Assembly (NCBI GenBank): GCA_005191425.1
Contig: SUPR01000027.1
Location: forward strand, 1 to 32,000
DNA from: Candidatus Helarchaeota ASGARD archaeon Hel_GB_B
Lineage (GTDB): Archaea > Asgardarchaeota > Lokiarchaeia > Helarchaeales > HEL-GB-B
Reading direction: 5' to 3'
Length of the DNA: 32,000 nt
In this document: positions 1 to 26,073 of the stretch, in pieces
Position numbering within the stretch: the stretch's first letter is position 1
Layout of the letters: every line of letters starts with the position of its first letter
Translations under genes and position numbers: made by a program
Notes under the pieces: generated by a model
The model's input: only the letters and a program-made list of their open reading frames with translations
What the model was told of the DNA's origin: nothing
Database searches by the model: none

Positions 1-792
1 CTTCACTGCAGCTTCAATAGCATCCATTACATCTTGGAAAGACCCCAATAAATTTAAGCCCCACTGTATTATCATGTTTATTAAATTGACTATGAAGTTT
101 GCAATTGCCACTATAACATTATAGAGCAGCTGAATTACATTCTGCCAGAACTGGACGAACGCCTGCCATAAGGTTTTTGGCATTAGTCCTTGTGGCGAAT
201 TTTTCATTATAGAGCCGTCAAATGGTATTAATTCGAGCACTTCGGGGGCGACTCCGGACAGCTCTGCTACCACCCTCGTATAATTGTATATGACACCTTC
301 TGTCTCGTTGGCACTGATCTGGCATAGTTCTAATATTTGCATTGCTTCAGAAACTGGCACTGCCTCTTTTGTTATTATCGACTCCACGTATTGGTTAATG
401 CTTTCAGAACCACGGTCAATTCCCGAGAAATTAGCTGCCTTCAAGTAGTCTGAGAGTTTATTTAAGCCTAATTGTCCCGTAGTATCATTTACCGCTTGTT
501 CAATTATCGCGTGTAGTTTTGTGTCGGCGAAGAGTGGGACTGGTACCATTATTACGTTAATTCCGCTATCAAATACCTCATTAGACCCGTCAACGTCCCG
601 TATTATTAAGTTCATGCGCTCAATTGACGGGTAATGCCCATCATTAAAAGACACATTGGAATATACCGCGATTGTATTTACTTTCGGTAGTGGTATGGTA
701 TCCACTTTAAATTTAAGCCAGTTATTACCCGCAATGCTCGTGAAATTTTGGGAATTGTTGTTATTATCATTAGTAATCAACTTCCGATGCTT
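1..792 (-). pseudogene. Apparently 5'-truncated fragment of a secreted/surface glycoprotein-like gene, running off the left edge
   Basis: Not in the ORF track; translated by hand. Stop-free frame from 792 to 1 (KHRKLITNDNNNNSQNFTSIAGNNWLKF...PKTLWQAFVQFWQNVIQLLYNVIVAIANFIVNLINMIIQWGLNLL...EAAVK). Possible TTG start at 780. About 7 N-x-S/T sequons, no signal peptide, preceded in frame by TAG TAA (798-793). GC about 40% by eye. Confidence 0.6.
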
Positions 793-1223
793 TTACTACC
801 TGGAACTCTCCACACAAACAGTCCCCGACTTTAATTTCTCACCACTTTTTAATACCCTCCAGAATAAATTTTCAGACCTCCCTGCGATTATCGGGCCTGC
901 TTTTATTTCCTCTACTACATCTTCGACCAGATCAGGAAACCGACGAACTGTAAAATGAAAATCTAAAATTAATTTCAAGGACTATACAGTTCAATTATCA
1001 TTTAAAATCGAATAGCTTCTTGAACATACTAAACTTTTGTTCAACAAGGTGTCTAAGTCGGAATGTTTTTATTCGAGGAGTAATATTTTTCATCAGTAAA
1101 AGAAGAATTTGTAAAAAGTTAAAAATAGTCATTTATTAGTAATTTCATGTATTTAATTTTATTAACTTTAAAATTATATTGAACTAATTAAATTGTAAAT
1201 TGTTTTATAATAAATTTTAATGG

Positions 1224-1892
1224 ATGATATCAATGTATAACGCAGAGCAAATGAATTATCAAATTAAATTTAGTAATCAAGAACTTAAGGATTTATTTAT
1301 AGCAGTTGGAGCTTTAACACTGATGTTTACGTTAATGAATATAAATATATTTAATTTGTTTCTTTATTTTACATTAGACAATATAGTAATTTTTCTTTTT
1401 GTAATTTTTGAATGTTTTGTTGGTGCATTTACAGGTTTTTTTTTACATGAGTTAGGACACAAGTTTACTGCCCAAAAATTTGGGTGTTGGGCTGAATTTA
1501 GGGTAAATTATTCGGGATTATTATTGGGATTATTATTTTCGTTATCGGGGTTTTTTATATTTTTTGTACCTGGTGCGGTTTACATTAAAGGAGATATTGA
1601 TTTAGAGAAAAATGGTAAAATTTCATTGATGGGTCCTCTTACGAATTTGATAATTGGTGGTTTATCATTTGGGGTTTATTGGCTTATTCGCATTTTTAAT
1701 TTAACGTATTATTTTTTATTTCTTTATGATTTAACCTATTTTGTTTCTACTATAAACATATCACTAGCACTTTTTAATCTTATACCTTTTGGACCTTTAG
1801 ATGGAAAAAAGATTTTTAATTGGAATAGATCGCTTCTAATTTTCTTGCTAATTGGTTCGATTGTTTTAATGATATTAATTTATATATTTTAA
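1224..1892 (+). CDS. Site-2 protease family (peptidase M50) membrane zinc metalloprotease
   Basis: HELGH zinc motif in a hydrophobic segment, GPLTN, and NLIPFGPLDG (NxxPxxxLDG third ligand); multiple TM segments. True start may be a downstream Met. Confidence 0.9.
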   Translation: MISMYNAEQMNYQIKFSNQELKDLFIAVGALTLMFTLMNINIFNLFLYFTLDNIVIFLFVIFECFVGAFTGFFLHELGHKFTAQKFGCWAEFRVNYSGLLLGLLFSLSGFFIFFVPGAVYIKGDIDLEKNGKISLMGPLTNLIIGGLSFGVYWLIRIFNLTYYFLFLYDLTYFVSTINISLALFNLIPFGPLDGKKIFNWNRSLLIFLLIGSIVLMILIYIF

Positions 1893-1931
1893 AATAAATA
1901 TGTAAATTTATAAAAGTTTTAAAAGATAAAA

Positions 1932-2591
1932 ATGCAAGATATTATTGTATTATCTGATCAAATCTTAGTTTATGTAAATTCGATAGTATTTTGGGTATGT
2001 GCTATAGTATTCTGGGCTAAATCAAAGAAATCTGAATTAAAATCGCAGAAGAGATTCTTTATTGGGATTTCATTTTTTTTCATATTTTGGGGTATTATGA
2101 GAATAATGTTTATATTTTCTAATTATTATTATGAAATCGATTTATCTTTATATTCATTTTATTGGAAAATTGCTTCTACTATAGGGATTGGTGGACTACT
2201 TTCGATTTTAATTGTATTAGAAATATATATGGTCAAATCTAAATTTATTTTTTCGATAATTACATTTATTGGGTTATTACTTGCAATAATCCTTCCAATA
2301 AATGGAACTGAAATTTCTGGCGCCAGACTTGCAACTTACATTTTTCTCCCTACGGGAGCTCTTTCCATCCTTGGGCTTTATATATATCTTTATATCAAAT
2401 TATCAGGTAGAGCTCGACATGAAACTGGTATAATAGCTTGGGGACTAACCTTAATTTTTTTAGGTTATACTTTAACTATCGAATTAATTAAACACATATT
2501 TAATACAGAGTTAATAAGCCCAATAGCTTCAGTTGTAATGATTTGTGGCGCTTTACTCTACACAACTATGTACTATTTTAAGAAAGCCTGA
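1932..2591 (+). CDS. Polytopic membrane protein with about 7 predicted TM helices, unknown function
   Basis: Seven hydrophobic stretches of about 20 aa separated by short charged loops; no soluble domain. Confidence 0.75.
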   Translation: MQDIIVLSDQILVYVNSIVFWVCAIVFWAKSKKSELKSQKRFFIGISFFFIFWGIMRIMFIFSNYYYEIDLSLYSFYWKIASTIGIGGLLSILIVLEIYMVKSKFIFSIITFIGLLLAIILPINGTEISGARLATYIFLPTGALSILGLYIYLYIKLSGRARHETGIIAWGLTLIFLGYTLTIELIKHIFNTELISPIASVVMICGALLYTTMYYFKKA

Positions 2592-2598
2592 AATCTAT

Positions 2599-3816
2599 TT
2601 AATATCGAACGATTTCAATTGTAAAGTCATTATCTGACTTCTTTAGCATTTTAGATATACTACCATGTTTTGAAATTACTCTTAACATCCTTTCTATTTT
2701 TTTAATTTCTATTGTTGATATTGATCTATCTGCATATATAATCCATTTTTTCAAAGGCTCGTTAAATCCAACGTAGGCACCCGAAGTAGGTAAACTTTTC
2801 AGTTCAATCAAATTATTGTTTCTAATTTTAAAATAAATAACTTTATGACCATTTTTTTTATCCCCATATTTCGGTCGTTCTGGGATAACTGAATAATTCT
2901 TATTTTCTATTCCGTATTTTATAAGATTTAAATTATCAAGTTGCTTTTCATAACGTTCTTTCATAAATATAATTTCATCATTCAGTTCGGTATTTTCTTT
3001 CTCTAGTTTTTCGATTTTTTGTTCTAATTCTTTGATTTTTCTGATGCTTTCCTTCTTAATTTCAAAATTTTGTTTTTCAAGGTTTTCAATTTCAGTTAAT
3101 AATGTATTTTTTTCCTCCAATAATTTGGAATTTTCATTTTGAAAGGATTTTGAAATTTCATTTAATTCTGATTTATATGAATTTATTTCATTTTTTAGAA
3201 AAGAATTTTCTTGAGTTAATTTTTCGATCTCTTTTTGTAAATTTTCAATCTTTTTATCTTCTAAAAAATTTTTATTATTTTCTAATTCGTGTATTTTCTT
3301 CAAATAATATTCCTTTTCTTTAGACAATTTCTCTATGTATTCATTTTCTTGTTTTTTTAGTTGTTCCTTTAATTCATTAATAATTTTTTCATAGGATTTT
3401 TTTTGGTCATTAAGTTGCCTATCTTTTTCAATTTTTAGATATTCGATCTTTTTTTCATAATCTACACTAATCTCTTCAATTCCAGAAATAAAACCAGAAT
3501 GATCCACCGATTTCTTTTTCAATTCTAGGATTCTTTTTTGCAGAAACTCAGTAGATTCTTTAAGTTCTTGTTTTTCTTTTTCAAGTTTTTTAACTTTTTC
3601 TTCTATTTCACTATTTTTTATTTTGAGATCGTGAATATTATTTTTATATTCTGCAATAGTAGAATTTAAATTTGATATTTGTTGATTTTTTTCATTAATA
3701 ATTTTATTTAGTTCTAAAATTCTTTTTTCAGTAGTTTGTTCTAAAAATATTAATTTTTGGTTTAATTCTTCCAAATTATTTATCAACGCATTACCTCTAA
3801 CATTATTTGAATTCAT
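2599..3816 (-). CDS. Long coiled-coil protein with small C-terminal alpha/beta domain (possibly gelsolin-like)
   Basis: About 300 aa of E/K/L/N heptads, then a globular tail VIYFKIRNNNLIELKSLPTSGAYVGFNEPLKKWIIYADRSISTIEIKKIERMLRVISKHG. The CDS is well supported; the domain call is tentative. Confidence 0.75.
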   Translation of the reverse strand: MNSNNVRGNALINNLEELNQKLIFLEQTTEKRILELNKIINEKNQQISNLNSTIAEYKNNIHDLKIKNSEIEEKVKKLEKEKQELKESTEFLQKRILELKKKSVDHSGFISGIEEISVDYEKKIEYLKIEKDRQLNDQKKSYEKIINELKEQLKKQENEYIEKLSKEKEYYLKKIHELENNKNFLEDKKIENLQKEIEKLTQENSFLKNEINSYKSELNEISKSFQNENSKLLEEKNTLLTEIENLEKQNFEIKKESIRKIKELEQKIEKLEKENTELNDEIIFMKERYEKQLDNLNLIKYGIENKNYSVIPERPKYGDKKNGHKVIYFKIRNNNLIELKSLPTSGAYVGFNEPLKKWIIYADRSISTIEIKKIERMLRVISKHGSISKMLKKSDNDFTIEIVRY

Positions 3817-3934
3817 TACATTTTTTCATTTTTTAATAATTTTTGTAAAAAATATATCTAATTTATTAAGAATTGAAAAATTAGGTTAAAATTTTTATAG
3901 AAAAATCAGACAGCAAAAGTTTTTTTTAAAATTT

Positions 3935-5776
3935 TTAGTGAGTTTTCTTAATTTTGCCATATAATTTTTCAATACCATTTTTAAAAGTCAATAACATTTG
4001 ATAAAAATCTTTTCTTTCCTCTTTATCTTCAAAAATATGCTTAATTTTAATATATTTATTAAAAATTGATGAAAAATTTTTAAGAATAATGATATAATCT
4101 ATTAAAAATAAAATGGTCTTAGGTGGTACTTTTTCAAAATCAGTGAAATTCTCAATATATTCATTAAAACTTGAGCATTTATCTTTAATTTTTGTGATAA
4201 CTTGTAAAATTAACGGAGATTTCTTAAATAATAATTCCAATTCGATTAAGTCGTTATTGATTTCGGCATAATTGTAATTTTTGATAATAAAATCTTTAAA
4301 TTTAATATAATTTTCAACGATAATCTCTTTATTTTTTAAAATCATCTTTTTGATTTCAGAATAAAGTTCATTTATAATATAATTATCCGTTAATTTTTCT
4401 AAATAGATCGGGATTTGTGGAAATAAGATTTTAGGATGTAATTTTAAGATGTTCCTTATTATTTCAATAATATCAGTACGGGAACTTTCATATTCTAATA
4501 AATTAAAAAGGTCAAGAATATATTCATATAATAAATGTGGATATCTCAGTGAAATGTTTAATAATATATCTGTAATATCAGCTCTTATTTCGTTAATGGA
4601 GAAAAAATCCAATAATAATTCTATATTATCCTTAAATAAATCTGGATTTTTGCGTCCTATAATTTTTAATAATTCAATTGCCTCGAATTTTAGGTTTTCA
4701 TTTTTTATTAGATTGATAATTTCTGAAATATTATTTTTAATTAATTCAGGCTCATCATATGTAATATTTCTTAATATCCCCCATAAATTTAAGCGATAAT
4801 TAAAATCTTTATCGTATAAAAGTTTTATTAAATGAGCAATTTCGTCTTTAAAAAAGGACGGATTTGTTTCACTTATATTCCTTAGCAATCTTGCTAAATC
4901 TAATTTAACTTCCTGGATATTTAATTTTTCAATAATAAAATGGACGTGCGATTGAAATAAGCGCGGTATTTGGACAAGATTCATTAGTATTTCTACAATA
5001 TCAAATCTAAATATTTCTAAATCTAGAAAAGAAATTAACCTATGAATATATTTTTCAAAATATAGTGCATTAGATTTTGAGATATTTTTAAGAATATCAA
5101 TAATATACAATTGAATAGATTCATTTTCTAATGAATCGATCAAATATCCCATCGAATCTCTAAAAATTTCAGGAGCATTTTCACTAAAAGATGTTAATAA
5201 ATCAATTGGATCTAAATTGTCTTTATTTATATCTTTTTGAATTATTTCCTTATAATTAGATAGTAAGTTATCATAAATATTTACGATATTTATATCTTGA
5301 TTTTCTATTTCTTTAATTAATGATTCAATTGGATCTAAAATTTTTTCTGGAAATTTGCTTTTTAAATCCTTATAAATTCCAATTAAATCTGGTTTAACAA
5401 TACTCCCATTCAATTCATCAATAACTTTTTTGAAATTTTCAATTTCATCTACAAAAACATGTGGATCTTTCTCTAAAATATTTTCAAGAATAGAAAGTAT
5501 GTCTAATTGTATATTTTCGATTTTTAAACATGATAACAATAGTGTTATAGAACCCTCAAATACTTCAGGATTATTAACAGATACTTGATCAAAAATATCC
5601 AGAATGTATAATTGATAATCTGGAATATTTAATAAATCAAAAAAATCCTTTAAAAAATCTGTCAAAAGAAGAGGATTCTTTAAAACAATTTGTTCTAATT
5701 TCTTAAAAAGTTCTTTTATTTCATTAAATTTTAAATTTTTCTGTTTTAAATTATCAATAATTGAATTTATGTCCAT
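3935..5776 (-). CDS. HEAT/ARM-like alpha-solenoid repeat protein
   Basis: Recurring ~35-aa helix-pair units of the form P..F...I..LI..L....I...I..IL.NIS..NP (e.g. NPSFFKDEIAHLIKLL, NPDLFKDNIELLLDFF, YPHLLYEYILDLFNLL). Confidence 0.8.
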   Translation of the reverse strand: MDINSIIDNLKQKNLKFNEIKELFKKLEQIVLKNPLLLTDFLKDFFDLLNIPDYQLYILDIFDQVSVNNPEVFEGSITLLLSCLKIENIQLDILSILENILEKDPHVFVDEIENFKKVIDELNGSIVKPDLIGIYKDLKSKFPEKILDPIESLIKEIENQDINIVNIYDNLLSNYKEIIQKDINKDNLDPIDLLTSFSENAPEIFRDSMGYLIDSLENESIQLYIIDILKNISKSNALYFEKYIHRLISFLDLEIFRFDIVEILMNLVQIPRLFQSHVHFIIEKLNIQEVKLDLARLLRNISETNPSFFKDEIAHLIKLLYDKDFNYRLNLWGILRNITYDEPELIKNNISEIINLIKNENLKFEAIELLKIIGRKNPDLFKDNIELLLDFFSINEIRADITDILLNISLRYPHLLYEYILDLFNLLEYESSRTDIIEIIRNILKLHPKILFPQIPIYLEKLTDNYIINELYSEIKKMILKNKEIIVENYIKFKDFIIKNYNYAEINNDLIELELLFKKSPLILQVITKIKDKCSSFNEYIENFTDFEKVPPKTILFLIDYIIILKNFSSIFNKYIKIKHIFEDKEERKDFYQMLLTFKNGIEKLYGKIKKTH

Positions 5777-8090: not shown

Positions 8091-10727
8091 ATGACTGATA
8101 AATGTAAGTATTTAGATGAAAAAGATATTTTGGGCGAAATCTTCTATTTATGTAACATCCAAAAAAAAGGTATTTCTACCGATTTTGTTTTGGAAACATG
8201 TTTATCTCCAAACTGGAAAGATTGCGAGTTTGTATTTAGTCCATCGAAATCGCATTTAAAAGGCAAATGGAAGGAAATAATTGGATTAGAGGATATCAAA
8301 AAAGAGCTCATCCAGAAGGTCCAACATCCCTTCATTTTATCTCAGATTAAAAATATGAAAATAGAACCAGTAAAAACGCTTATTCTTTTTGGTCCAGATG
8401 GGTGTGAAAAATTATCATTGGTCCATGCATTAGCTGAAGAGAGCCATGTTAATTTAGAGACTATTTCATTCAGACAAATTGAAGAATTGAACACAAAAAT
8501 TGATGAAATTGGAGAAAATGACCCGACTATTATTTTAATTGATGAGGTAGACCTAGTTGCACCACCAATAGAATCAAAACAAGTATATTTAGCAACATTT
8601 AGAATCCAAGATCCTATAATTATATTAATGTCTGCTATTCAGAAAATTAAATCTTCTAATAAACCTATATCCTTGATTATGATTACTGATAATCCTGATT
8701 TAGTTTCTCCATTAATTTTAAAACAGGAATATATTTCTGATATAATTTACGTTCATCCTCCAACGGAAAAAGATAGGAAGGAAATTTTAAAAAATTTATT
8801 ACAAAATAAACCGCTGGAGAAAAATATTGATTTTGATTTACTGGCCAAAAAAACATTTAATTTTTCGGTGCAGGACCTTAAAAAACTAGTTAGAATAACC
8901 GAATTAAAATGGGCTGAAGATTCTTATGAAAATGAGCGAAAAATTTCAATGGACGACATACTCAAGGCTCTAAAAGAAGTAATCCCCTCATTGACAAAAT
9001 CAATGATTAAAAAATTTGAGATAACTGCGATTCGTTATGGTGCAATGGAAAAAAGGTTTAGTAAAGAACGATTAACGTGGGATGATGTAGGAGGATATGA
9101 TTCTATTAAAAAGCAATTAAAAAATATTATTTCAATGTTAACATCAAGTGATATGTATAAAAAATATGATGTTAATGCACCAACAGGTGTGCTTTTATTT
9201 GGACCTCCTGGGTGTGGTAAAACTTATATTGCCAGAGTAATGGCTGATATTGCTAATGCTAATTTCATATATGCAAGCGCTCCTGATTTATTATCAAAAT
9301 GGTTGGGTGAAAGTGAACAAAAAATTCACGATTTATTTACAACCGCAAAATTAAACCCACCTACAATTCTCTTTTTTGATGAATTAGACGGAATTGCATT
9401 TGAAAGATCAAGAACAACTGATCATCCGTATTTGACGACTATATTGTCTACATTTCTATCTGAATTCTCTGATCTCCGTCCTGAAGACCATATTTTAGTA
9501 ATTGGAGCTACTAATAGAATTGAAGATATAGATCCAGCATTTCTTAGACCTGGACGTCTTGATGAGCGAATTGCAGTTCCACCACCAGATTTTAATGCAA
9601 GAAAAGAAATTTTTCAAATTTATTTAAGAAAAGTAGAATTGAGTGATGATGTTGATTTTGATTTTTTAGCAGAAAAAACTAAAAATTATACTGGAGCTGA
9701 AATCGCTTATATTTGTGATACCACTAAACGCAATAAAGCTTTTAAGGCTATTGAAAATGGCAAATATACTAAAATAAAAATGAAAGATATTTTAGAAGTT
9801 TTAGATTCAATTAAACCAGATCTATCATCTGAAGATATTGATGAATTTAATGAAATGATTGAAAAATTTGAACGCCGTGGTAAATTTTCCCCTGAAATAC
9901 TTCATGAGCCTATATACTGGAATGAAATTGGAGGTTTAAAAGAAGTTAAAGATTTTTTACAAAATCACGTTATACGGCCATTAATTAATTACAGAGATGC
10001 TCTGGAATTCGGTATTACACCAAAAAAAGGGATAATTATTTACGGTTTACCTGGAACTGGAAAAACATCAATAGCAAAAGCAATTACAACCGAATCCAAT
10101 GCAAATTTCTTTAGATTTTCAGCATTAGAATTATCTAATGTCTTTCTTTATAGAACTGATACACCAAAAAGTTTTAAAGATTTGATACGCGATGCCGAAA
10201 GAGTTGCACCTTCTATTATACTACTCGAAAATGTAGAAGCTATCGATTCATTTGAAATAGCCCTTTTTATTCAAAGTGAAATTGAAAAAATAAAAAAGGA
10301 AATTCCAATTTTAATTATATGTGAAACCAATAATTTTGAAGGAATACCTGAAATTTTAAAAGCAAGCAACCAAATTCAATATGTTGTTATTATAAATCCA
10401 CCTACTTTTGAAGAACGAATCGAAATTTTAAAAATTAAAACAAAAAATCTTATTCTTAAGGACGATTTTGACTTCAAATTTATTGCAAATAGAACTAATT
10501 ATTATACTGGTTCGGACCTTGATAAATTGATAAAAGAAGCTGCTCATATTGCCTTTACAAGGAAATTAAATAACAGTTCAAAAGATTCTGTTAAAATAAA
10601 CGAGGATGACTTTTTAAATGCAATGAAAATAGTCGAACCATCACTATCACAAAAGATAATCGATGAATTCAAAAATTCAATCGACAGAATCCAAAAAAAC
10701 AAAACTCGTATTGGTTATTATGGTTAA
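8091..10727 (+). CDS. Cdc48/Vps4-clade AAA+ ATPase with three tandem AAA modules
   Basis: Three modules each opening W.(D/E)(I/V).G and closing P(S/D)L....I..F. Walker A: GPDGCEKL (8391, degenerate), GPPGCGKT (9201), GLPGTGKT (10044). Walker B: ILIDE, LFFDE, LLEN. SRH ATNR...RPGRLDE only in module 2. GGAG SD upstream. Confidence 0.9.
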   Translation: MTDKCKYLDEKDILGEIFYLCNIQKKGISTDFVLETCLSPNWKDCEFVFSPSKSHLKGKWKEIIGLEDIKKELIQKVQHPFILSQIKNMKIEPVKTLILFGPDGCEKLSLVHALAEESHVNLETISFRQIEELNTKIDEIGENDPTIILIDEVDLVAPPIESKQVYLATFRIQDPIIILMSAIQKIKSSNKPISLIMITDNPDLVSPLILKQEYISDIIYVHPPTEKDRKEILKNLLQNKPLEKNIDFDLLAKKTFNFSVQDLKKLVRITELKWAEDSYENERKISMDDILKALKEVIPSLTKSMIKKFEITAIRYGAMEKRFSKERLTWDDVGGYDSIKKQLKNIISMLTSSDMYKKYDVNAPTGVLLFGPPGCGKTYIARVMADIANANFIYASAPDLLSKWLGESEQKIHDLFTTAKLNPPTILFFDELDGIAFERSRTTDHPYLTTILSTFLSEFSDLRPEDHILVIGATNRIEDIDPAFLRPGRLDERIAVPPPDFNARKEIFQIYLRKVELSDDVDFDFLAEKTKNYTGAEIAYICDTTKRNKAFKAIENGKYTKIKMKDILEVLDSIKPDLSSEDIDEFNEMIEKFERRGKFSPEILHEPIYWNEIGGLKEVKDFLQNHVIRPLINYRDALEFGITPKKGIIIYGLPGTGKTSIAKAITTESNANFFRFSALELSNVFLYRTDTPKSFKDLIRDAERVAPSIILLENVEAIDSFEIALFIQSEIEKIKKEIPILIICETNNFEGIPEILKASNQIQYVVIINPPTFEERIEILKIKTKNLILKDDFDFKFIANRTNYYTGSDLDKLIKEAAHIAFTRKLNNSSKDSVKINEDDFLNAMKIVEPSLSQKIIDEFKNSIDRIQKNKTRIGYYG

Positions 10728-10840: not shown

Positions 10841-11461
10841 TTGGAAAACAATAATTTAAAAGGCGGAACTGAAAAAGAGGAAGAAAAAAATGAGCTTGTC
10901 AACTTCTTAAAAGATACTCGCGAGATTATTTTAAATGGTGTGCGAGATGCCTTTATTGATAGAAAAACTGATAATATTCAAAAACTCTACCAATTAGCAG
11001 CTAAAATCTCGGAAGAATTGGGTGATATCGAATCTAAGAAACGATTTGAAAACAGGTCAAAATTGTTTAATAGAAAAAATGCAAACGAAATTTTAGAAGA
11101 TATTGATTTAACCATTAAAAGCATCATTCAAATTATTAATTATGAATTTCAAGATAAAATTAAAAGGGTACTATACACTATAAATTTGCTAATAAATACT
11201 GCAAAAGAAATAGAAATCGCAGAAAAAACCTTTAGAAGGGCAAATGCCCAATTAAATTTCTCACTTATTCAATATATTCGAAAAATGCGGGCATTTAGAA
11301 ATGAATTATTTAGGTTAATACCTAAGGAATTAATACAAACATCCTTCGAAGAATGGGAAAATGAACATAAAAAAATAAAACTAAACCTTGAAAAATTAAA
11401 GGTAAAATTAGATCTTCTTATTTTAAAGTATAAAAAAGATTATAATGAAGAATTAATTTAG
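10841..11461 (+). CDS. Hypothetical all-helical protein
   Basis: 206-aa ORF with TTG start, host-like codon use, amphipathic helices and a C-terminal coiled coil; no recognisable catalytic motif. Confidence 0.65.
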   Translation: MENNNLKGGTEKEEEKNELVNFLKDTREIILNGVRDAFIDRKTDNIQKLYQLAAKISEELGDIESKKRFENRSKLFNRKNANEILEDIDLTIKSIIQIINYEFQDKIKRVLYTINLLINTAKEIEIAEKTFRRANAQLNFSLIQYIRKMRAFRNELFRLIPKELIQTSFEEWENEHKKIKLNLEKLKVKLDLLILKYKKDYNEELI

Positions 11462-14839: not shown

Positions 14840-17257
14840 ATGCTTTATAAGCGTCAGATATTAGGTACTAAGATTTCTACAAATCAAAATTTTATCAAAA
14901 CAATTTCGGTTTCTCCTGATGGTAGATATATTATATCTGGTCATTGGGATAATATTATCAAAATTTTTGATATACAAACATGCAGATGTACTAAAATTTT
15001 AGAAAATCATTCGGATTCAATATATTCTATTGCATTTTCTCCTGATAACAAATATTTTGCTTCAAGCTCTTTTGATAAAACAATTAAGATATGGGAATTG
15101 GAAACCGGTAAATGTATCAAAAATTTCAAAGGCCATAACGACTGCGTTAATTCTGTAATTTTTTCTCAAAATGGTAAATATCTTATCAGTGGCTCTAGAG
15201 ATAAAACTATAAAAATATGGAATATACAAACAGAAAATTGTATTAAAACATTAAAAGGGCATGTTGGTTCGGTTGAAATAATAATTATGACCCACGATGG
15301 TTCTAAAATAATCTCTGGTTCAACTGATGGTTCTATCCGGTTATGGAACTTTAAAAATGGTAAGTTAATTGGAACAATACATGATTTCGGCGTTATAATT
15401 TATTCATTAAAAATATCTTCTAATGGAAAATTTCTAATATCTAACTCATTAGATAATATAAAAATCTGGGATTTAGAAGAACTTGAGCTGATTTTTACAT
15501 TAGAACTACATAAAGGACAGATAAATTCATTCACTGTTACATCTGATGGTAAATATTTAATTTGTGGCACTGAAAATGGTCATATTGCTGTCTGGGATTT
15601 TAATAATAAAAATATAATTAATGAATTAGAAGTTAGTAATAGTATTGAAGTGATTGAATCAATTGATAACAAAACTTACAATATAATTTTAGATCAATGT
15701 TTCGCTCATTTAGATGAAAATGGAAATATAGTCCAATGGATTAAATTTAAAAATGATATCATTCAAAACTTTCCAATTTTCCACAAATTAGATTATGATG
15801 AATTTAATTCATTTCTATCTAATTTGACGCATTCTAAAATGTCCATAAATAAGTTAGCCGATGAAATCAAACTTGAAAGAGCCGATATAATAAATTTTAT
15901 TTCCTTCTTAGAAGATCATGAACTAATAAGTGGTCAAATTGATAAAGATAATAATTTTCTTTCTTATCTATATATTCAAGAATCAATTAAAGAAATTCTA
16001 AATTTATCAGGAAAAATTGAAATTGAGAAAATTACGCAAGTTATTGGTATTCCACAAGATATATTATTAAGAATTATGAAAAATATGATAAAAGAAAATG
16101 TATTAAATGGTTTTTTTAACGATCAAGAGTCAATTTTTACTACAAATGAAGAATTTATGTCTAATATTGTCCTTGAATTAAAAAAGAATAAAATTCTAAA
16201 CCTAACAAAATTATCTGATGAATTTGGAATTAATAAAGATTATATTTTGAAAATTATTGAAGACTTAAAACAAAGAGGCGATATTCCTCAAGTTAAAATT
16301 TCTGCTGATGTTGTTCAAGTCCTTGAAGAAGAAGTTTTACCACCAATTATAGAACTTAAGCCTGAAGAAATTGTTGAAATTCCTGAAATTAAAGAAATAA
16401 CTGAGCCAATCCATGAAAAAACTCAATCTAAAAAAGAGCTAAAAATTACTGCTAAAGAATCTAAAAAAAAGACAAAAGTTGATATTTATATAGAAGAAAT
16501 TAATGAAATATTTCTCAAATTAATAAAAATATTCGAAATCCTAGAAATACCTGCTTTTTACGAAGAAACTGAAAAGTTTTTTAACGAAATTTTTAACTTT
16601 AACAAATCTACATTAGAAAAATTTACAAATGAAAAGTTTATTTCCGTAATTACTAATTTTCAACAAATTATTAACGAAATTACTTCTAAACAAGATAAAA
16701 TTGAATCAATTCAATGTCATAATTTAGAATTTAAATTTATTTCAATTATTAAGGACTTTTTAAATTATAGTAATAAACAATTAAAAGAGATTATCAATAA
16801 TTTAAAGGAACCCAGTTTTTATAAAGTAATAAATGACGCATTTAATGAATTTGACTACCATTTTATTAAGCAAAATAACTTATATATTGAAAATATTCTT
16901 GATTCCATTATTTTAATTGATAAAAACAATACTATTTTGTTTGATTACAGATTTCGACCAACTTATGATCAAAATTTAACTGAAAAAATATTAGATTTAA
17001 TCAAAAATAAAGAGAAAAATTTAATTCACGAAGAATTTGAAATTTTTGAATTAAAATCTGATACTATCTTTTGTTATCTAAAGAAAATCAATGATATTCA
17101 ATTATTATTAATAACAACTGGACAATTTATACCAAATTACCTCAGTTATATTAATGATCTTGCTTCTGATATTAAAGCAGAATTTAGAGACCTCTCAAAC
17201 TCCGGTAAACAGAAAATAAAAAGTATCATAAAATCCAAATTCTTTTTTAACCTTTAA
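14840..17257 (+). CDS. Multidomain protein: WD40 propeller + tandem winged-helix/PCI-like domains + C-terminal longin-like domain
   Basis: Six clear WD40 repeats (e.g. GH..V.S.....G..L.SGS.D.TIKIW) plus one degenerate; three wHTH-like units at aa ~316-480 (LISGQID, VLNGFF); C-terminal LDSIILIDKNNTILFDY...beta-beta-alpha-beta-beta-beta-alpha pattern. WD40 is secure; the other domains are pattern-level calls. Confidence 0.8.
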   Translation: MLYKRQILGTKISTNQNFIKTISVSPDGRYIISGHWDNIIKIFDIQTCRCTKILENHSDSIYSIAFSPDNKYFASSSFDKTIKIWELETGKCIKNFKGHNDCVNSVIFSQNGKYLISGSRDKTIKIWNIQTENCIKTLKGHVGSVEIIIMTHDGSKIISGSTDGSIRLWNFKNGKLIGTIHDFGVIIYSLKISSNGKFLISNSLDNIKIWDLEELELIFTLELHKGQINSFTVTSDGKYLICGTENGHIAVWDFNNKNIINELEVSNSIEVIESIDNKTYNIILDQCFAHLDENGNIVQWIKFKNDIIQNFPIFHKLDYDEFNSFLSNLTHSKMSINKLADEIKLERADIINFISFLEDHELISGQIDKDNNFLSYLYIQESIKEILNLSGKIEIEKITQVIGIPQDILLRIMKNMIKENVLNGFFNDQESIFTTNEEFMSNIVLELKKNKILNLTKLSDEFGINKDYILKIIEDLKQRGDIPQVKISADVVQVLEEEVLPPIIELKPEEIVEIPEIKEITEPIHEKTQSKKELKITAKESKKKTKVDIYIEEINEIFLKLIKIFEILEIPAFYEETEKFFNEIFNFNKSTLEKFTNEKFISVITNFQQIINEITSKQDKIESIQCHNLEFKFISIIKDFLNYSNKQLKEIINNLKEPSFYKVINDAFNEFDYHFIKQNNLYIENILDSIILIDKNNTILFDYRFRPTYDQNLTEKILDLIKNKEKNLIHEEFEIFELKSDTIFCYLKKINDIQLLLITTGQFIPNYLSYINDLASDIKAEFRDLSNSGKQKIKSIIKSKFFFNL

Positions 17258-20292: not shown

Positions 20293-22914
20293 TTATAAAT
20301 TATCATTTTCAAATTTTTTAAAATGATTTTTTCCTTTAATTTTTTTCGTTCTTAGATGGTTATAAAAAGTGTGGTATCTTCTTTTATACCAATTTTCAAT
20401 TTCATTTATATCTTCATTTGATAACTGATATAATTTATATACAAGATAATCTATTTTTGTTTGTTCATAAATAAAATATGGATATTTTTGGTCATCATGC
20501 TGCTTTTGAATGATTTTGTTGACCAAATCTTCAATCTGATACATTATAGATTTATTATCTTTGTCTATTAAAGGGATTGGAATTTGTTTAATTCCACCAA
20601 CTTGCGTGTGAACAGTTGAATTAATATAATTTTTTAAAAGATATTTCACAAGTTTTGAACATAAAATACCTAAACAAAATTCTAAACTATAAAATTCTGT
20701 GAAAATTGTCATTCCCATTACATCAAAAACTGAAGAGTGGTTTAATCTAAAGGTCGGGGCGTAAAATCCAGTATCTGAATAGGTAATTCCTTTTTTAAAA
20801 TAATATTTAAAATTTTGAAGTCTTGAAGCTATTTTATTAGAGGAAAACAATTCAATCTTGTCTTTTTTACCATAATATCTTTCTCGGTCTATTATTGTTA
20901 AATTTTTTAATCTATTTATTGCTTCTTTTGACCAATTAATATAATAGTTTGTTGGTACCCAATAATTTGGAAGCCACCCCTCTTTGATATTTGATTCAGC
21001 ACCTTTATCATATGGAATGTATTTTTTACCACCATAATCATTGTCATCAATTCCCAATATATCTCCAGTCTTTTCATAATATCGTCTATATTTTTTAGAG
21101 AACTCTATCAATTGTTCTCCATTTAAAATTAATTTCTTATCTACGACCTTATAATTTCCATAAACTTTTTCATTACTTTTTCTAATATAATATTTATTAT
21201 CTCCTGTCCCTAATCCTTGTTTTATTATTGATATATCTCCAAATTTTAATAAATTTAAGCGATTTCCATTAAAGATTATTTTATATATTAACAATGATTT
21301 ATTTTTAGATGGAAATGAATGTTTATCACATTCTTGGTCATTCATAAGGGAAAAAATTTTGGGGCTGGCAATAATTATTGGAATTTTCGAATATTTTAAT
21401 AATATTTTTTGCTGGTATTTATAAAAACCCACATTTGTTTTTAAAAAGTTACCATCTAGCCTATCAAAAATTAGTTTACCAAGGATATCTATTAAAATAT
21501 TTTTATTTTTAACTGGAATCCCTGTCAAATCAATTGCTTGAACATCTGAATTTAATCTTAAAAATCTGTTTTTATCACCTGGTAAACTTTTCAGGATAAA
21601 TATCGAAGTGTTTACGGTAGCTTCAAATAACCAAATTGGGAGTGATACAATAAAAATTAATCCACAAGAATTTAAAACTCTCCTTCTTAAAGGTAAATGG
21701 CTCTCAATAGTACGCCAAGTATCACTCGTAAGAAAGGATAAATAACCATTCACTTTTAGAAATTCTAATGATTTGACTATAAAAGCTCCATAAAGATCCA
21801 TACTCATTAATCCAAGCTTTTTTGCAGTTTCTTTAGAAATGCCTCTTCCTCTTGCTGCATAAGGTGGATTTCCAATTATAATATCAAATTTAAATGAGAT
21901 ATTCGAATTATTTATTTTTAAAAAATCAGATCTTAGAAAGTTAAATTTCAAATTTCTAAACTTTAAGTTTCTACTACTTATAAAAAATGGTAGTAATATC
22001 ATTAAAGCTGCAATATCCATTGCCTCTTTTTCTATATCAATGCCATATAGAGATTCGTTTATAATTTTAAATTTTATGCGTAATAATTCATTTTTATCAA
22101 TATTATTTGAATTCATAATTATCTTTTTACAATTTAACAAAATTAATGTAATATCTTCTAGAATTGAAATTAAAAAAGTGCCAGTTCCCATTGCTGGGTC
22201 TAAAACTTTAAAATTATCAAATATCTTTATAATTTTTAAAGCATTTTCTTTATTAATAGTAGAGACATTAACATTTATGTCTTTTGAAAATAAAATTTTT
22301 ATGTCCTCTTTTTCTATGCCTAATTTCTCTTCAATATACCTAATTAATACTTTCTTGGTCAGAAAGTTTGCAATAAATTTATTTGTATAATAAATCCCAA
22401 ATCTTTTTTTCTCCGAACCTTTGTATAATTCATAAATATAACTAAAAATATCTGTACCAATTTTATATTCCTCAAAAATAAAGAATTCCGTAGAAATTTT
22501 ATTTCTGGAAAAAAAGTTTAAAACAGAATTCTTCTTATTTGGGTCAAAAATTTCGTTGGGTATAAAAATATTATTAATAATTTTCCATTCTTCTGGTGTA
22601 AAATCGTCAAATCTTAAATCTATTTGATTGAAAAATTTGATATTTGACCATTCTTCTGAAAAATTATCTAAAAATCTTCTCAAAAATAAATCAAAATAAT
22701 TTCCATTATTTTTATTTACCTTAAATCTTTCAAATATGTCAGAAAAGTGTTCTTTTATTATTTTTCTATCCTTAATGAAATAATATAATGTAATTTTAAA
22801 TAATAGATCTTTTACAAACTTTAAAATCAATTTCTTATTAGATAAATTTGGGTTATACTTTATTATATTTCTTACAATATTATTGTATAGGATTTTAATT
22901 TCTTTATTTGTCAT
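20293..22914 (-). CDS. N6-adenine DNA methyltransferase with fused target-recognition domain (Eco57I/Type IIG or BREX PglX-like)
   Basis: FGIYYTN, SAM-binding DPAMGTGTFL, YGIDIE, catalytic NPPY; TRD segment KQGLGTGDN, YIPYDKG, YFKKGITYS, VFDVMG. No N-terminal nuclease motif seen. Confidence 0.88.
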   Translation of the reverse strand: MTNKEIKILYNNIVRNIIKYNPNLSNKKLILKFVKDLLFKITLYYFIKDRKIIKEHFSDIFERFKVNKNNGNYFDLFLRRFLDNFSEEWSNIKFFNQIDLRFDDFTPEEWKIINNIFIPNEIFDPNKKNSVLNFFSRNKISTEFFIFEEYKIGTDIFSYIYELYKGSEKKRFGIYYTNKFIANFLTKKVLIRYIEEKLGIEKEDIKILFSKDINVNVSTINKENALKIIKIFDNFKVLDPAMGTGTFLISILEDITLILLNCKKIIMNSNNIDKNELLRIKFKIINESLYGIDIEKEAMDIAALMILLPFFISSRNLKFRNLKFNFLRSDFLKINNSNISFKFDIIIGNPPYAARGRGISKETAKKLGLMSMDLYGAFIVKSLEFLKVNGYLSFLTSDTWRTIESHLPLRRRVLNSCGLIFIVSLPIWLFEATVNTSIFILKSLPGDKNRFLRLNSDVQAIDLTGIPVKNKNILIDILGKLIFDRLDGNFLKTNVGFYKYQQKILLKYSKIPIIIASPKIFSLMNDQECDKHSFPSKNKSLLIYKIIFNGNRLNLLKFGDISIIKQGLGTGDNKYYIRKSNEKVYGNYKVVDKKLILNGEQLIEFSKKYRRYYEKTGDILGIDDNDYGGKKYIPYDKGAESNIKEGWLPNYWVPTNYYINWSKEAINRLKNLTIIDRERYYGKKDKIELFSSNKIASRLQNFKYYFKKGITYSDTGFYAPTFRLNHSSVFDVMGMTIFTEFYSLEFCLGILCSKLVKYLLKNYINSTVHTQVGGIKQIPIPLIDKDNKSIMYQIEDLVNKIIQKQHDDQKYPYFIYEQTKIDYLVYKLYQLSNEDINEIENWYKRRYHTFYNHLRTKKIKGKNHFKKFENDNL

Positions 22915-23736: not shown

Positions 23737-24369
23737 ATGGTTGTTGATAAATTAAATTTTTTTACAAAATTATTAGGTTCATTTGGCGGGAGATATATAT
23801 TTAATACTGCGCAAAAAATTAATTTATATACTTGTGGGTTAATTGTTCAAGAAACTATGAAGATATTTATGGACATATATGGAGATTATGAAATTGGCAT
23901 AGAAGAATTTAATGAAGCCCTCGCAACTGGTGTTAAAGAAATGATTGCCGATATGTTGGACCAATCTTATTTATTTGGAAAAGGATTGGGTGATATTGTT
24001 TCAAGAACTCCTTCTGATTCTTGTAGTGCAATTGAAATAGGGTTCTGGGCTCTGATGGGTAAGGAATCTAAACAATTAATTGAGAAACCAATTTGGGTTC
24101 CTTTTGAACAGCCTAATGAATATATTGGTAAATTGGTAGTTGGAATTAAAAGATGCCCATTTTGCTTTGGAATGGACAAAAATATTGAGTCCAAACTAAC
24201 TAAAGTTCATTACGGAGATTTTTTTGCCATTATGATCGGAGGTATTCTTCAAGAAATAATGGAATATGTTGGAAACGATTTTGAAATGATCTCTAAAGAG
24301 ACTAAATGCTTTATGCGGGGCGATGAAAAAGGTGAATTAACCATCTATTTCAAACAAAGAAAAAACTAA
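23737..24369 (+). CDS. V4R-like domain protein
   Basis: CPFC, IGGILQ, ETKCFMRGD (E.KC...GD V4R signature); 3 bp after the preceding gene. Confidence 0.7.
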   Translation: MVVDKLNFFTKLLGSFGGRYIFNTAQKINLYTCGLIVQETMKIFMDIYGDYEIGIEEFNEALATGVKEMIADMLDQSYLFGKGLGDIVSRTPSDSCSAIEIGFWALMGKESKQLIEKPIWVPFEQPNEYIGKLVVGIKRCPFCFGMDKNIESKLTKVHYGDFFAIMIGGILQEIMEYVGNDFEMISKETKCFMRGDEKGELTIYFKQRKN

Positions 24370-24701
24370 AAAATAGAGAAATTAGGGGTAGTAACTTTTA
24401 CTAATTTTTATACAAATATTATATTTTTAATAATAGAGCTGCTTTTAAGATTAAAAATTATATTTCTAAGAAATATTTCATTTCACAATGATAGAATTTC
24501 CAGAATTAATAAAGGAAATATTTAAAGAGATAACGATCAGTCAAGGAATTGTTGGAGAATCTATTTATCGTTTGTTTAAAATTACAGATATTAATAGTAA
24601 AACCAAATCGGAATGTTTATAATTAAAAATACGCATTTTATAGCAATGCCGGAATTTATAAAAACTCAGAACAAATAAAATCCAATAAAAGAGAGAGATG
24701 A

Positions 24702-25673: not shown

Positions 25674-25704
25674 ACGAAAAAGAGGGATATGGATATACAA
25701 GAGA

Positions 25705-26073
25705 GTAGATTTAAAATACAAATATTTTTTAATATTCCTTGATATAATACTATTATGTATAGATGACTTGATTGAAATAAATAAAGAATTGTAGAGTGAA
25801 ATAAAAGAGTTAATAGAGAGTGAAGCAGAGGAATTTGATGTATCAAATGGAATAATAATTATTCTAGAAAATGTAGTATTTGTGGAGGATTTAAAAAAGG
25901 AATTAAAGGAAACAAAGCGAAAATCAAAGGAAATAGAGAGAAGATCAAAGGAAATAGAGAAAGAATTGAAGAGAGTGAAATTAGAAAAAAAGAAAATAAA
26001 AAAAGAACTGGAAAAAAGGAAAAAAGGAAAAAAGGTACAAAAACTTAGAAAAAAATTAAAAGATATGAAATAA
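25705..26073 (+). pseudogene. Degenerate tandem duplicate of the 3' half of the PD-(D/E)xK/coiled-coil gene
   Basis: VDLKYKYFLIFLDIILLCIDDLIEINKEL*SEIKELIESEAEEFD...ENVVFVEDLKKEL aligns with aa ~158-323 of 24702..25673; in-frame TAG at 25792 replaces GAG; nuclease motif absent. Confidence 0.85.

What the first reader, a model, noticed from the sequence alone, without database searches (positions are those of the whole stretch)
8091..10727. Cdc48-clade ATPase with three tandem AAA modules (dead-active-degenerate)
Seen: three complete modules at aa ~59-310, ~328-600 and ~609-870. Module 1 has a broken Walker A (GPDGCEKL), no pore loop and no Arg finger. Module 2 is canonical (GPPGCGKT, KWLG pore loop, FFDE, RPGRLDE). 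Module 3 keeps GLPGTGKT but has Walker B LLEN and no SRH. All three end with the P(S/D)L....I..F helix typical of Cdc48 D2/Vps4. Known: Cdc48, NSF and Pex1/6 have two AAA rings and Vps4 has one. Inference: triplication of a D2-like unit, possibly giving a three-tier ring with one motor ring. I do not know of a characterised example in this clade.
Basis: partly seen in the sequence, partly recalled or inferred. Interest (0 to 1): 0.82.

Follow-up and report, generated by a model that had tools for sequence, protein, structure and literature searches.

The report
Three-tier AAA unfoldase of Asgard archaea
This is a real, conserved archaeal gene for an ATP-driven protein-unfolding machine built from three stacked engine modules instead of the usual one or two, with only the middle engine functional. 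No such design has been studied experimentally, although relatives with three to six modules turn out to be scattered through metagenomes.

Summary
ORF 8091-10727 (+) encodes an 878-aa protein with three complete classical AAA modules, at aa 58-322, 328-600 and 608-873.

It is not an assembly artefact. At least 16 full-length orthologues (47-79% identity) come from independent Loki-/Hel-/Promethearchaeota assemblies.

New findings:
- An invariant four-Cys N-domain.
- A C-terminal HbYX-type tail in 20 of 22 members.
- A sister group with four modules (dead-active-active-degenerate).
- A conserved gene neighbourhood with a TPR protein and a roughly 250-aa helical-repeat protein. These two are fused into one gene in this window.

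Each module best matches the D2 domain of the archaeal Cdc48 homologue VAT, and each keeps the D2/Vps4-type C-terminal helix. The protein fails the CDC48, PAN and CdvC family thresholds.

The family is rare, in about 8 of 400 Asgard species genomes. Unrelated proteins with 3-6 AAA modules also exist.

Most likely function: a hexameric, multi-tier, single-motor unfoldase recruited by the TPR partner and docking on the 20S proteasome. Ring stacking and docking are inferred, not shown. It is a new variant of a known kind and moderately interesting.

The parts
8091..10727 (+). Gene for the 878-aa triple-AAA ATPase (P0001)
   Evidence: Open frame. Three PF00004 matches. 16 full-length orthologues.
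8091..8261 (+). N-terminal domain, aa 1-57, with four invariant Cys (C5, C21, C37, C45; spacing C-x15-C-x15/16-C-x7/8-C). Probably metal-binding. No known family.
   Evidence: The four Cys are invariant in all 21 three- and four-module members. No credible Pfam or PDB match. The AF2 model is of low confidence here.
8262..9056 (+). Module M1, aa 58-322: a complete AAA fold that is catalytically dead. Walker A is GPDGCEKL (aa 101-108, nt 8391-8414). The pore loop is deleted, KQEY (aa 211-214) replaces the Arg fingers, and a D2/Vps4-type C-terminal helix is present.
   Evidence: 17% of columns are invariant across orthologues.
9072..9890 (+). Module M2, aa 328-600: the canonical motor. Walker A GPPGCGKT (aa 371-378), pore loop K403-W-L-G406, Walker B D430-E431, sensor-1 N475, Arg fingers R486 and R489.
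   Evidence: 38% of columns are invariant. 354 bits to VAT D2.
9912..10709 (+). Module M3, aa 608-873. Walker A GLPGTGKT is intact (aa 652-659, nt 10044-10067). Walker B DE is replaced by E713-N714, sensor-1 reads CETNN, there are no Arg fingers, and the pore loop is non-canonical. Predicted to bind nucleotide without hydrolysing it.
   Evidence: 229 bits to VAT D2.
10716..10724 (+). C-terminal Tyr-Tyr-Gly: an HbYX-type tail, a candidate element for docking on the 20S proteasome.
   Evidence: 20 of 22 family members end in [hydrophobic/small]-Tyr-X. The pattern and its roughly 4% background rate are taken from PMC3493965.
6332..8062 (+). Upstream partner gene (576 aa, 28-nt gap). It has a TPR half (aa ~79-299) and a TPR-like helical-repeat half (aa ~300-576).
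   Evidence: Pfam TPR. Orthologues lie next to the AAA gene in L016, C69, L013, L017, L018, L014 and L019, either fused or as two separate genes. The C-terminal half folds as a helical repeat.
10841..11461 (+). Downstream 206-aa helical ORF (TTG start). Membership in the system is doubtful.
   Evidence: The only conserved counterpart is on contig C69 of the same genome bin (51% identity). It is absent from the other orthologous loci. No Pfam match.

Best explanation
The gene encodes a member of a small family of classical-AAA protein unfoldases found in Asgard archaea. Each subunit carries a Cys4 N-domain, three D2/Vps4-type AAA modules, and an HbYX tail.

By analogy with every classical AAA protein, I infer that it forms a hexamer with stacked rings.
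- The M2 ring is the only one able to hydrolyse ATP and grip substrate. It alone has a pore loop, the Walker B Glu, sensor-1 and Arg fingers.
- The M3 ring binds but does not hydrolyse nucleotide. It would act as a stable assembly collar, like NSF D2. It also presents six HbYX tails that could dock on and open the 20S proteasome.
- The dead M1 ring and the Cys4 domain form the entry-side platform. This platform would receive substrates or the conserved TPR/helical-repeat partner encoded next door.

Shown here: the domain anatomy, the motif states, conservation, the gene neighbourhood and the family distribution.

Inferred: hexamer stacking, nucleotide binding by M3, proteasome docking, and partner binding.
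For: Anatomy and motif states.

The degenerate modules are under constraint. M1 and M3 keep 17% and 13% invariant columns across orthologues that are only 47% identical overall. These include module-specific invariants: GPDGC and KQEY in M1, CET in M3.

The M1/M2/M3 division predates the split between the three- and four-module forms. M1 groups with QUAD-M1 (100/100), M3 with QUAD-M4 (100/99), and M2 with QUAD-M2 and QUAD-M3 (100/100). The four-module form duplicated only the motor module.

The HbYX-type end is present in 20 of 22 members even though the residues before it vary. In archaea this motif decides whether PAN, Cdc48 and AMA activate the 20S, and only about 4% of proteins carry it by chance (PMC3493965). 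The window's own genome encodes five proteasome subunits.

The closest solved relative of all three modules is VAT D2, from a proteasome-linked unfoldase.

The TPR half and the helical half of the neighbouring gene lie next to the AAA gene in seven further loci, both three- and four-module, either fused or split.

Complex prediction of the TPR protein with the N-domain plus M1 gave weak support only. The score was 0.42 and the best of 3 controls was 0.00. In calibration, 58 of 80 solved complexes and 2 of 110 mismatched pairs reached the mark. At 0.60 or under, only 7 of those 80 solved complexes passed, as did both of the mismatched pairs that passed. The runs agree in at least 52% of contacts and the partner's pLDDT is at least 68.
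Against: - No oligomer could be modelled, so three stacked rings are an analogy and not a result.
- HbYX-like tails also serve other partners. From my own knowledge, the p97 C-terminus binds PUB/PUL cofactors.
- The genome already has PAN (ending FYS) and two Cdc48 paralogues with Tyr-X ends, so a further proteasomal ATPase is not required.
- A substrate would have to cross an M3 ring without canonical pore loops to reach the 20S.
- The complex prediction passed only weakly.
- One orthologue ends YIG, and one (annotated as partial) lacks the tail.
- The function of the Cys4 domain is unknown.
Confidence: 0.6

Rival explanations
1. The architecture is the same, but the machine is independent of the proteasome. 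It would be a complex-disassembly or extraction machine in the manner of NSF/alpha-SNAP, Pex1/Pex6 or Vps4. The TPR/helical-repeat protein would be its adaptor, and the Tyr-X tail would bind a cofactor rather than the 20S.
For: The M2 (active) plus M3 (ATP-binding, inactive) pair mirrors NSF D1/D2, and the dead M1 mirrors Pex1/6 D1 (established knowledge; motif states). A helical-repeat partner is conserved next door. Its fold matches include Sec17/alpha-SNAP, but only at a level that is non-discriminating for helical repeats (Z 11.3, rmsd 3.7, 136 aligned). In one orthologous locus an Arf-like GTPase gene sits between the partner gene and the AAA gene. The genome already has other proteasomal ATPases.
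Against: The HbYX-type end is conserved in 20 of 22 members. The nearest solved relative is the proteasome-linked VAT. No specific substrate system is conserved in the neighbourhood. The alpha-SNAP match is tied with many unrelated TPR-like chains.
Confidence: 0.28
2. The protein works as a hetero-oligomer of two paralogues, the window copy and the 70%-identical copy on contig C69, like Pex1/Pex6 or Rpt1-6.
For: The genome bin holds two syntenic copies of the TPR / triple-AAA / small-ORF cassette.
Against: C69 is a 6.2-kb contig with 23.6% GC, below the 5th percentile of the bin's contigs, and the bin has 4.9% estimated contamination. It may therefore belong to a co-binned relative. The same-genus genome G126 and the other carriers show one copy with this query.
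Confidence: 0.07
3. It is an artefact: a mis-assembled chimera, or a run-on of separate AAA genes. Alternatively, M1 and M3 are decaying relics without function.
For: None beyond the unusual length and the degenerate motifs.
Against: The same uninterrupted architecture occurs in at least 16 orthologues from independent assemblies on contigs of up to 1.4 Mb. Contigs from other samples tile the gene without differences. M1 and M3 are conserved, with their own invariant motifs, across 47%-identical orthologues and into the four-module clade.
Confidence: 0.02

Closest known systems
VAT / archaeal Cdc48 (Thermoplasma acidophilum VAT, PDB 5vc7, 5g4g)
   Same: It is the best solved match for every module, always to its D2 domain. 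It is a classical AAA fold with a D2-type C-terminal helix and an HbYX-type end, and it is a known 20S-activating unfoldase (PMC3493965).
   Different: VAT has a double-psi-barrel N-domain, a D1 module and a D2 module, and both rings are competent. The window protein has a Cys4 N-domain, no D1-type module, three D2-type modules and only one competent ring. It fails the CDC48 family cut-off, 462 against 803 bits.
NSF / Sec18
   Same: The division of labour is similar: an ATP-hydrolysing ring followed by a C-terminal ring that binds ATP without hydrolysing it and holds the hexamer together (established knowledge). It also works with a helical-repeat adaptor.
   Different: NSF has two rings, a different N-domain and no HbYX-dependent role. 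No specific sequence affinity to NSF was seen, and the PDB hits are Cdc48-type.
Pex1/Pex6, and Yta7/ATAD2
   Same: These are type II AAA proteins with one degenerate, non-hydrolysing ring beside one motor ring. Yta7 forms a three-tiered hexamer (PMC9898759, listed).
   Different: The third tier of Yta7 is a bromodomain tier, not an AAA ring. None of these proteins has three AAA modules in one chain.
Uncharacterised multi-AAA proteins in databases: Candidatus Altiarchaeum 'CDC48 family AAA ATPase' (P0270, 1019 aa); metagenomic P0123, P0135, P0140 (3 modules); P0125, P0132 (5 modules); P0124 (6 modules)
   Same: They have three or more tandem PF00004 modules in one polypeptide. P0123 is even fused to TPR repeats.
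   Different: They arose independently. The modules of each protein cluster with each other and not with the window family. In the one whose motifs were checked (Altiarchaeum P0270) all three modules are canonical. They lack the Cys4 domain and the HbYX tail. The Altiarchaeum protein keeps CDC48_N and a D1-type first module.
Dynein / midasin (Rea1)
   Same: Many AAA modules lie in one chain, and some of them are inactive.
   Different: These belong to a different AAA+ clade, and their six modules form one ring within a single chain. Here the three or four modules per chain are expected to stack as separate hexameric rings.

Membership tests
Classical AAA (Pfam PF00004) with AAA_lid_3 | A P-loop alpha/beta domain matching PF00004 above the gathering score, followed by a helical lid | tested here: met
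   Three matches: 44.6, 125.2 and 63.0 bits against a cut-off of 21.2. The lid is found in M2 (27.4 bits) and M3 (37.0 bits). AF2 predicts three AAA folds.
CDC48 family (NCBIfam TIGR01243) | Whole-protein score above the curated cut-off | tested here: not met
   461.9 bits against a cut-off of 802.65.
CDC48 family | N-terminal double-psi barrel plus beta-clam (PF02359, PF02933) | tested here: not met
   No CDC48_N match in aa 1-320. A 57-aa Cys4 domain is there instead. The ordinary Cdc48 proteins in the same searches carry PF02359 and PF02933.
CDC48 family | A D1-type first AAA module (no C-terminal helix; groups with D1) | tested here: inconclusive
   M1 carries the D2/Vps4-type helix, best matches VAT D2, and lies outside the D1 group in the trees. 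However, the AU test does not reject M1 grouping with D1 (p 0.72).
Proteasome-activating nucleotidase PAN (NF003069, TIGR01242) | Coiled-coil and OB N-domain, a single AAA module, and a score above the cut-off | tested here: not met
   390.6 bits against 500, and 366.1 against 500. No coiled-coil/OB region is present. Only the HbYX-type tail is shared.
Vps4 / CdvC (NF041006) | MIT domain, a single AAA module with a C-terminal helix, and a score above the cut-off | tested here: not met
   286.6 bits against 650. There is no MIT domain. Vps4_C matches M2 (37.7 bits in the full-length scan, cut-off 21.3; 20.7 bits when M2 is scanned alone) and M1 only below the cut-off (17 bits). The genome has its own MIT-Vps4 on contig C128.
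HbYX proteasome activators (functional class) | C-terminus matching [LVIMGAPFYW][FY]x> (PMC3493965) | tested here: met
   The protein ends Tyr-Tyr-Gly, and 20 of 22 family members match the pattern (pattern).
HbYX proteasome activators (functional class) | Physical binding to the 20S alpha ring and opening of its gate | not testable with these tools
   This needs biochemistry. I could show only that the genome encodes 20S subunits.
Type II-like stacked hexameric AAA unfoldase | Hexameric rings stacked along one axial pore | not testable with these tools
   A hexamer has 5268 residues, which exceeds the complex predictor's limit. Only the monomer was folded.

The most novel reading that the evidence does not exclude
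A naturally occurring three-tier (and, in the sister clade, four-tier) classical AAA machine that is specific to Asgard archaea. A single motor ring is sandwiched between two catalytically silent AAA rings that have been re-purposed. One is a Cys4/metal-dependent receptor ring for a dedicated TPR/helical-repeat adaptor. The other is a nucleotide-locked collar that couples the motor to the 20S proteasome. This would be a distinct, adaptor-guided route into the archaeal proteasome. It would also be a natural experiment in how AAA rings are added and silenced, relevant to how eukaryotic multi-ring and hetero-hexameric AAA machines evolved.
Probability: 0.3. Interest if true: 0.8.

Novelty: new variant of a known kind. 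Interest (0 to 1): 0.62.

Why it matters
Studied classical AAA unfoldases (Cdc48/p97, NSF, Pex1/6, Vps4, PAN) have one or two rings. A conserved family with three or four AAA tiers, of which one or two are motors, gives a natural system for several questions. What do silent AAA rings contribute: assembly, gating or adaptor docking? How are rings added by internal duplication? How is a motor coupled to the proteasome through an inactive ring?

The family occurs in Asgard archaea, the closest prokaryotic relatives of eukaryotes. It comes with a dedicated TPR-type partner, so it may show an early adaptor-guided degradation or remodelling pathway. The proteins are soluble, about 100 kDa, and suitable for cryo-EM.

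Tried and rejected
- N-domain. Pfam gave PF13225 (D27-like_C) for the window protein only, at E 5e-4, below the cut-off, in 1 of 21 members. I treat it as chance. A PDB profile search returned only spurious immunoglobulin motifs.
- Helical C-terminal half of the TPR protein. There is no Pfam family. Atlas and VIA searches give only generic TPR-like repeats, with Z at most 12.7, below the level that is informative for helical repeats. The matches to Sec17/alpha-SNAP and to a proteasome lid subunit are therefore leads only.
- Phylogeny. The quick tree was sub-optimal, since the constrained trees scored better. AU tests could not decide the origin of M1. The M1+M3 sister grouping carries a long-branch warning.
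- Downstream ORF 10841-11461. It has no homologue in the other loci, so I do not count it as part of the system.
- Expression. No RNA holder is listed among the public runs.
- Read laying. The 'joints' that skip 957-2133 nt have flanks of only 20-22 nt and come from other contigs that share AAA motifs. I reject them as evidence for deletions. The independent samples gave only 150-490-nt contigs, so they tile the module junctions but do not strongly bridge them.
- Literature. Phrase searches for three, triple or tandem AAA modules and for three-tiered hexamers found no description of such a protein. The hits concern three separate ATPases of ribosome biogenesis, or the bromodomain tier of Yta7. 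The ESCRT/Asgard paper PMC11188069 does not mention one either.
- tRNA scan of the window: none found.
Full report
**What is there.** The window is 21-32% G+C by 2-kb windows, mostly about 25%, and densely coding. The ORF at 8091-10727 (+) is open and encodes 878 aa.

Pfam finds three separate PF00004 AAA matches at aa 97-220, 367-497 and 648-762. All are above the gathering score even when the three thirds are scanned alone, and AAA lids follow M2 and M3. A profile built from the middle module matches each of the three modules over essentially its whole length, with envelopes 58-322, 328-600 and 608-873. AlphaFold2 (mean pLDDT 78) predicts three alpha/beta-plus-lid units.

**Motif states.** I aligned 16 full-length orthologues and 93 individual modules.
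- M2 is fully canonical and the most conserved part, with 38% invariant columns. It has GPPGCGKT, the SKWLGESE pore loop, FFDELD, GATNR and RPGRLDER.
- M1 has GPDGCEKL. The Gly before the P-loop Lys and the Ser/Thr after it are both lost. The pore loop is deleted, and an invariant KQEY stands where the Arg fingers should be. Walker B Asp-Glu is still present.
- M3 keeps GLPGTGKT. Its Walker B DE has become EN, sensor-1 reads CETNN, and it has no Arg fingers.
- All three modules end with the P-S/D-L...I..F helix. Cdc48 D2 and Vps4 have this helix, and Cdc48 D1 does not.

One refinement concerns M1. Its Walker A is broken only in the window's subclade. The more distant three-module orthologues have GPDGCGKS and the four-module proteins have GPDGCGKA.

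**It is a real, conserved family.** Full-length orthologues at 47-79% identity come from independent NCBI, JGI, ENA and Logan assemblies labelled Helarchaeota, Lokiarchaeota or Promethearchaeota. Some lie on contigs of 308 kb, 527 kb and 1.4 Mb. Public contigs from hydrothermal-vent and marine-sediment metagenomes tile the gene without differences, and one 11-kb contig, possibly from the source sample, spans it. A chimeric assembly is therefore excluded.

M1 and M3 are not decaying. They keep 17% and 13% invariant columns, including module-specific motifs.

The family is rare. I searched 400 species genomes of the phylum with the N-domain plus M1. Only the window's genome, one congener and six genomes of three other GTDB families (one of these a fragment) gave family-level matches. 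All other genomes matched only as ordinary Cdc48 modules at about 30% identity. In the library clustered at 50% identity, only two other representatives align along the whole protein.

**New features.**
1. All 21 members examined share an N-terminal domain of about 57 aa with four invariant Cys. It matches no Pfam family or solved structure.
2. Twenty of 22 members end in hydrophobic/small-Tyr-X (YYG here) although the preceding residues vary. This is the HbYX pattern. In archaeal PAN, Cdc48 and AMA it decides 20S activation, and only about 4% of proteins carry it by chance (PMC3493965). The genome encodes five proteasome subunits.
3. A sister group of 1168-1178 aa has four modules: M1-like, two canonical motor modules, and an M3-like module (Walker B DD), with the same Cys4 domain and tail.
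4. The gene neighbourhood is conserved. The upstream 576-aa gene (28-nt gap) consists of a TPR half and a TPR-like helical half. Both halves have homologues next to the AAA gene elsewhere:
   - fused in L016 (51% identity) and on contig C69 (49%);
   - split in L013, L017 and L018, where the helical-half gene lies directly upstream of the AAA gene in L017 and L018. In L013 an Arf-like GTPase gene lies between them. TPR-half genes flank the AAA gene in L013 and L017; the 4.1-kb contig L018 shows only the helical half;
   - split in the four-module loci L014 and L019.

The helical half is a family of its own, with invariant Trp, Phe, Pro-Gly and Ser positions. It folds as a generic helical repeat.

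**Module origin.** Each module's best match in the PDB is the D2 domain of Thermoplasma VAT, at 138, 354 and 229 bits. In the careful maximum-likelihood tree:
- The Cdc48 D1 modules group apart from all family modules, with only moderate support in that tree (UFboot/SH-aLRT 69/93 without the long-branch row C150; 100% SH-aLRT in the quick tree).
- All family modules, together with the first module of a membrane-anchored two-AAA group, form a clade (UFboot/SH-aLRT 89/98).
- M1 groups with QUAD-M1, M3 with QUAD-M4, and M2 with QUAD-M2 and QUAD-M3, each at 99-100.

So the M1/M2/M3 design predates the split into three- and four-module forms, and the fourth module is a duplicate of the motor. AU tests do not reject either 'all family modules are one clade' (p 0.77) or 'M1 groups with D1' (p 0.72). 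The triplication scenario is therefore compatible with the data but unproven. The M1+M3 sister grouping carries a long-branch warning.

**Family membership.** The protein is a classical AAA protein but fails the curated cut-offs for CDC48 (462 against 803 bits), PAN and CdvC. It lacks CDC48_N, MIT and coiled-coil/OB domains. The same genome has three ordinary Cdc48 paralogues, a PAN, a MIT-Vps4 and a Cdc48N-plus-one-AAA protein, so this protein is an addition and not a replacement.

**Is the architecture known?**
- Structure search: the best PDB matches shown (top 50 of at least 500 hits) are all p97/Cdc48-type two-module proteins, with about 560-630 aligned columns, i.e. two modules.
- Literature: searches for three, triple or tandem AAA modules or three-tier hexamers found no description. 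The nearest concept is Yta7, whose third tier is a bromodomain tier.
- Databases: independent multi-AAA proteins do exist. They include a Candidatus Altiarchaeum 'CDC48 family' protein with CDC48_N plus three modules, TPR plus three modules (P0123), and proteins with three, five and six modules. Each arose by its own internal duplication.

The general idea of more than two classical AAA modules is therefore present in sequence space but uncharacterised. This family is one specific version, with its own pattern of silenced modules.

**Mechanism.**
- Shown: one competent motor module flanked by a dead module and a module with an intact P-loop but no catalytic Glu or Arg fingers; a constrained C-terminal Tyr-X end; and a conserved TPR/helical partner next door.
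- Inferred from the behaviour of classical AAA proteins: hexamers with stacked rings. M2 translocates substrate. M3 acts as a nucleotide-locked assembly collar (as in NSF D2) that presents HbYX tails to the 20S. M1 plus the Cys4 domain act as the receptor tier for the partner.

Complex prediction of the TPR protein with the N-domain plus M1 gave weak support only. The score was 0.42 and the best of three controls 0.00. In calibration the mark was reached by 58 of 80 solved complexes and 2 of 110 mismatches. At 0.60 or under, only 7 of those 80 solved complexes passed, as did both of the mismatches that passed. The runs agree in at least 52% of contacts, and the partner's pLDDT is at least 68.

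The main rival is the same machine working without the proteasome, as an NSF- or Pex-like remodeller with a TPR adaptor. I put the proteasome link at roughly 45% and the architecture and catalytic division at roughly 85%.

**Second copy.** Contig C69 (6.2 kb) of the same bin carries a syntenic TPR / triple-AAA / small-ORF cassette at 49%, 70% and 51% identity. Its G+C (23.6%) is below the 5th percentile of the bin's contigs, and the bin has 4.9% estimated contamination. It may be a true paralogue or a co-binned relative, and I could not decide which.

**Earlier notes of this scan.** First-stage notes on this same stretch had already pointed to the YYG tail and to the TPR gene. I had reached the tail independently. 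I tested both ideas by conservation across orthologues.

**Verdict.** It needs three corrections: loss of the M1 P-loop is subclade-specific, the protein is not a bona fide Cdc48, and the architecture is not unique. It is a new variant of a known kind, of moderate to good interest for AAA+ mechanism and for Asgard cell biology.

Noticed in passing
P0008-P0011, P0013, P0014; loci L014 6001-9507 and L019 5846-9367: A four-module sister family (1168-1178 aa) with the same Cys4 N-domain. Its modules are M1-like (GPDGCGKA), two canonical motor modules, and an M3-like module with Walker B DD. It ends in LYS or FYS. It occurs in one GTDB genus of the phylum.
   Followed up: partly
P0124 (2124 aa), P0125 (1398 aa), P0132 (1631 aa), P0127 (2055 aa): Metagenomic proteins with five or six tandem classical AAA (PF00004) modules in one chain (P0127: 6 matched stretches to the query; not run through Pfam). 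P0132 adds an FHA domain and lies on a 4.6-Mb contig. P0124 has six modules spaced about 250 aa apart, so it could form a single-chain pseudo-hexamer. No names or taxa are on record.
   Followed up: partly
P0270 / P0122 (1019 aa, Candidatus Altiarchaeum hamiconexum): A protein annotated 'CDC48 family AAA ATPase' with CDC48_N plus three fully canonical AAA modules: a D1-type module followed by two D2-like copies. It is an independent triple-AAA lineage, seen on 60 contigs.
   Followed up: partly
G000 contig C69 (6174 bp): 3905-5617(-), 1233-3893(-), 547-1119(-): A second, syntenic copy of the TPR / triple-AAA / small-ORF cassette in the same genome bin, at 49%, 70% and 51% identity. Its G+C of 23.6% is unusually low for the bin. 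It is either a paralogue or a co-binned relative.
   Followed up: partly
L013 5053-5982 (+), beside P0020: An Arf/Rag-like small GTPase gene (309 aa) lies 18 nt upstream of the triple-AAA gene and directly after the helical-partner gene in a Lokiarchaeota MAG. It may be co-transcribed. It was not seen in the other loci.
   Followed up: no
P0123 (1303 aa): A metagenomic protein that fuses TPR repeats to three AAA modules. It is a Rosetta-stone-like parallel to the TPR-plus-AAA gene pair here, but its modules are not orthologous to the window family.
   Followed up: partly
P0044, P0109, P0048, P0067: Two-AAA proteins with an N-terminal membrane anchor (one TM helix, or a polytopic domain of about 350 aa). 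Their first module is the nearest outgroup to the family's motor module in the careful tree (76/87).
   Followed up: no
window 24001-26000: Strong GC skew (+0.41) and AT skew (+0.25), with overlapping long ORFs on both strands (24702-25673 + and 24893-25846 -). This suggests a compositionally biased or repetitive coding region.
   Followed up: no
window 20293-22914 (-): An 873-aa Eco57I/MmeI-type fused restriction-modification methyltransferase (PF07669, PF02384).
   Followed up: no
window 14840-17257 (+): An 805-aa protein with an N-terminal WD40 propeller that closely resembles eukaryotic WDR-type propellers, followed by about 500 aa that I did not examine.
   Followed up: no
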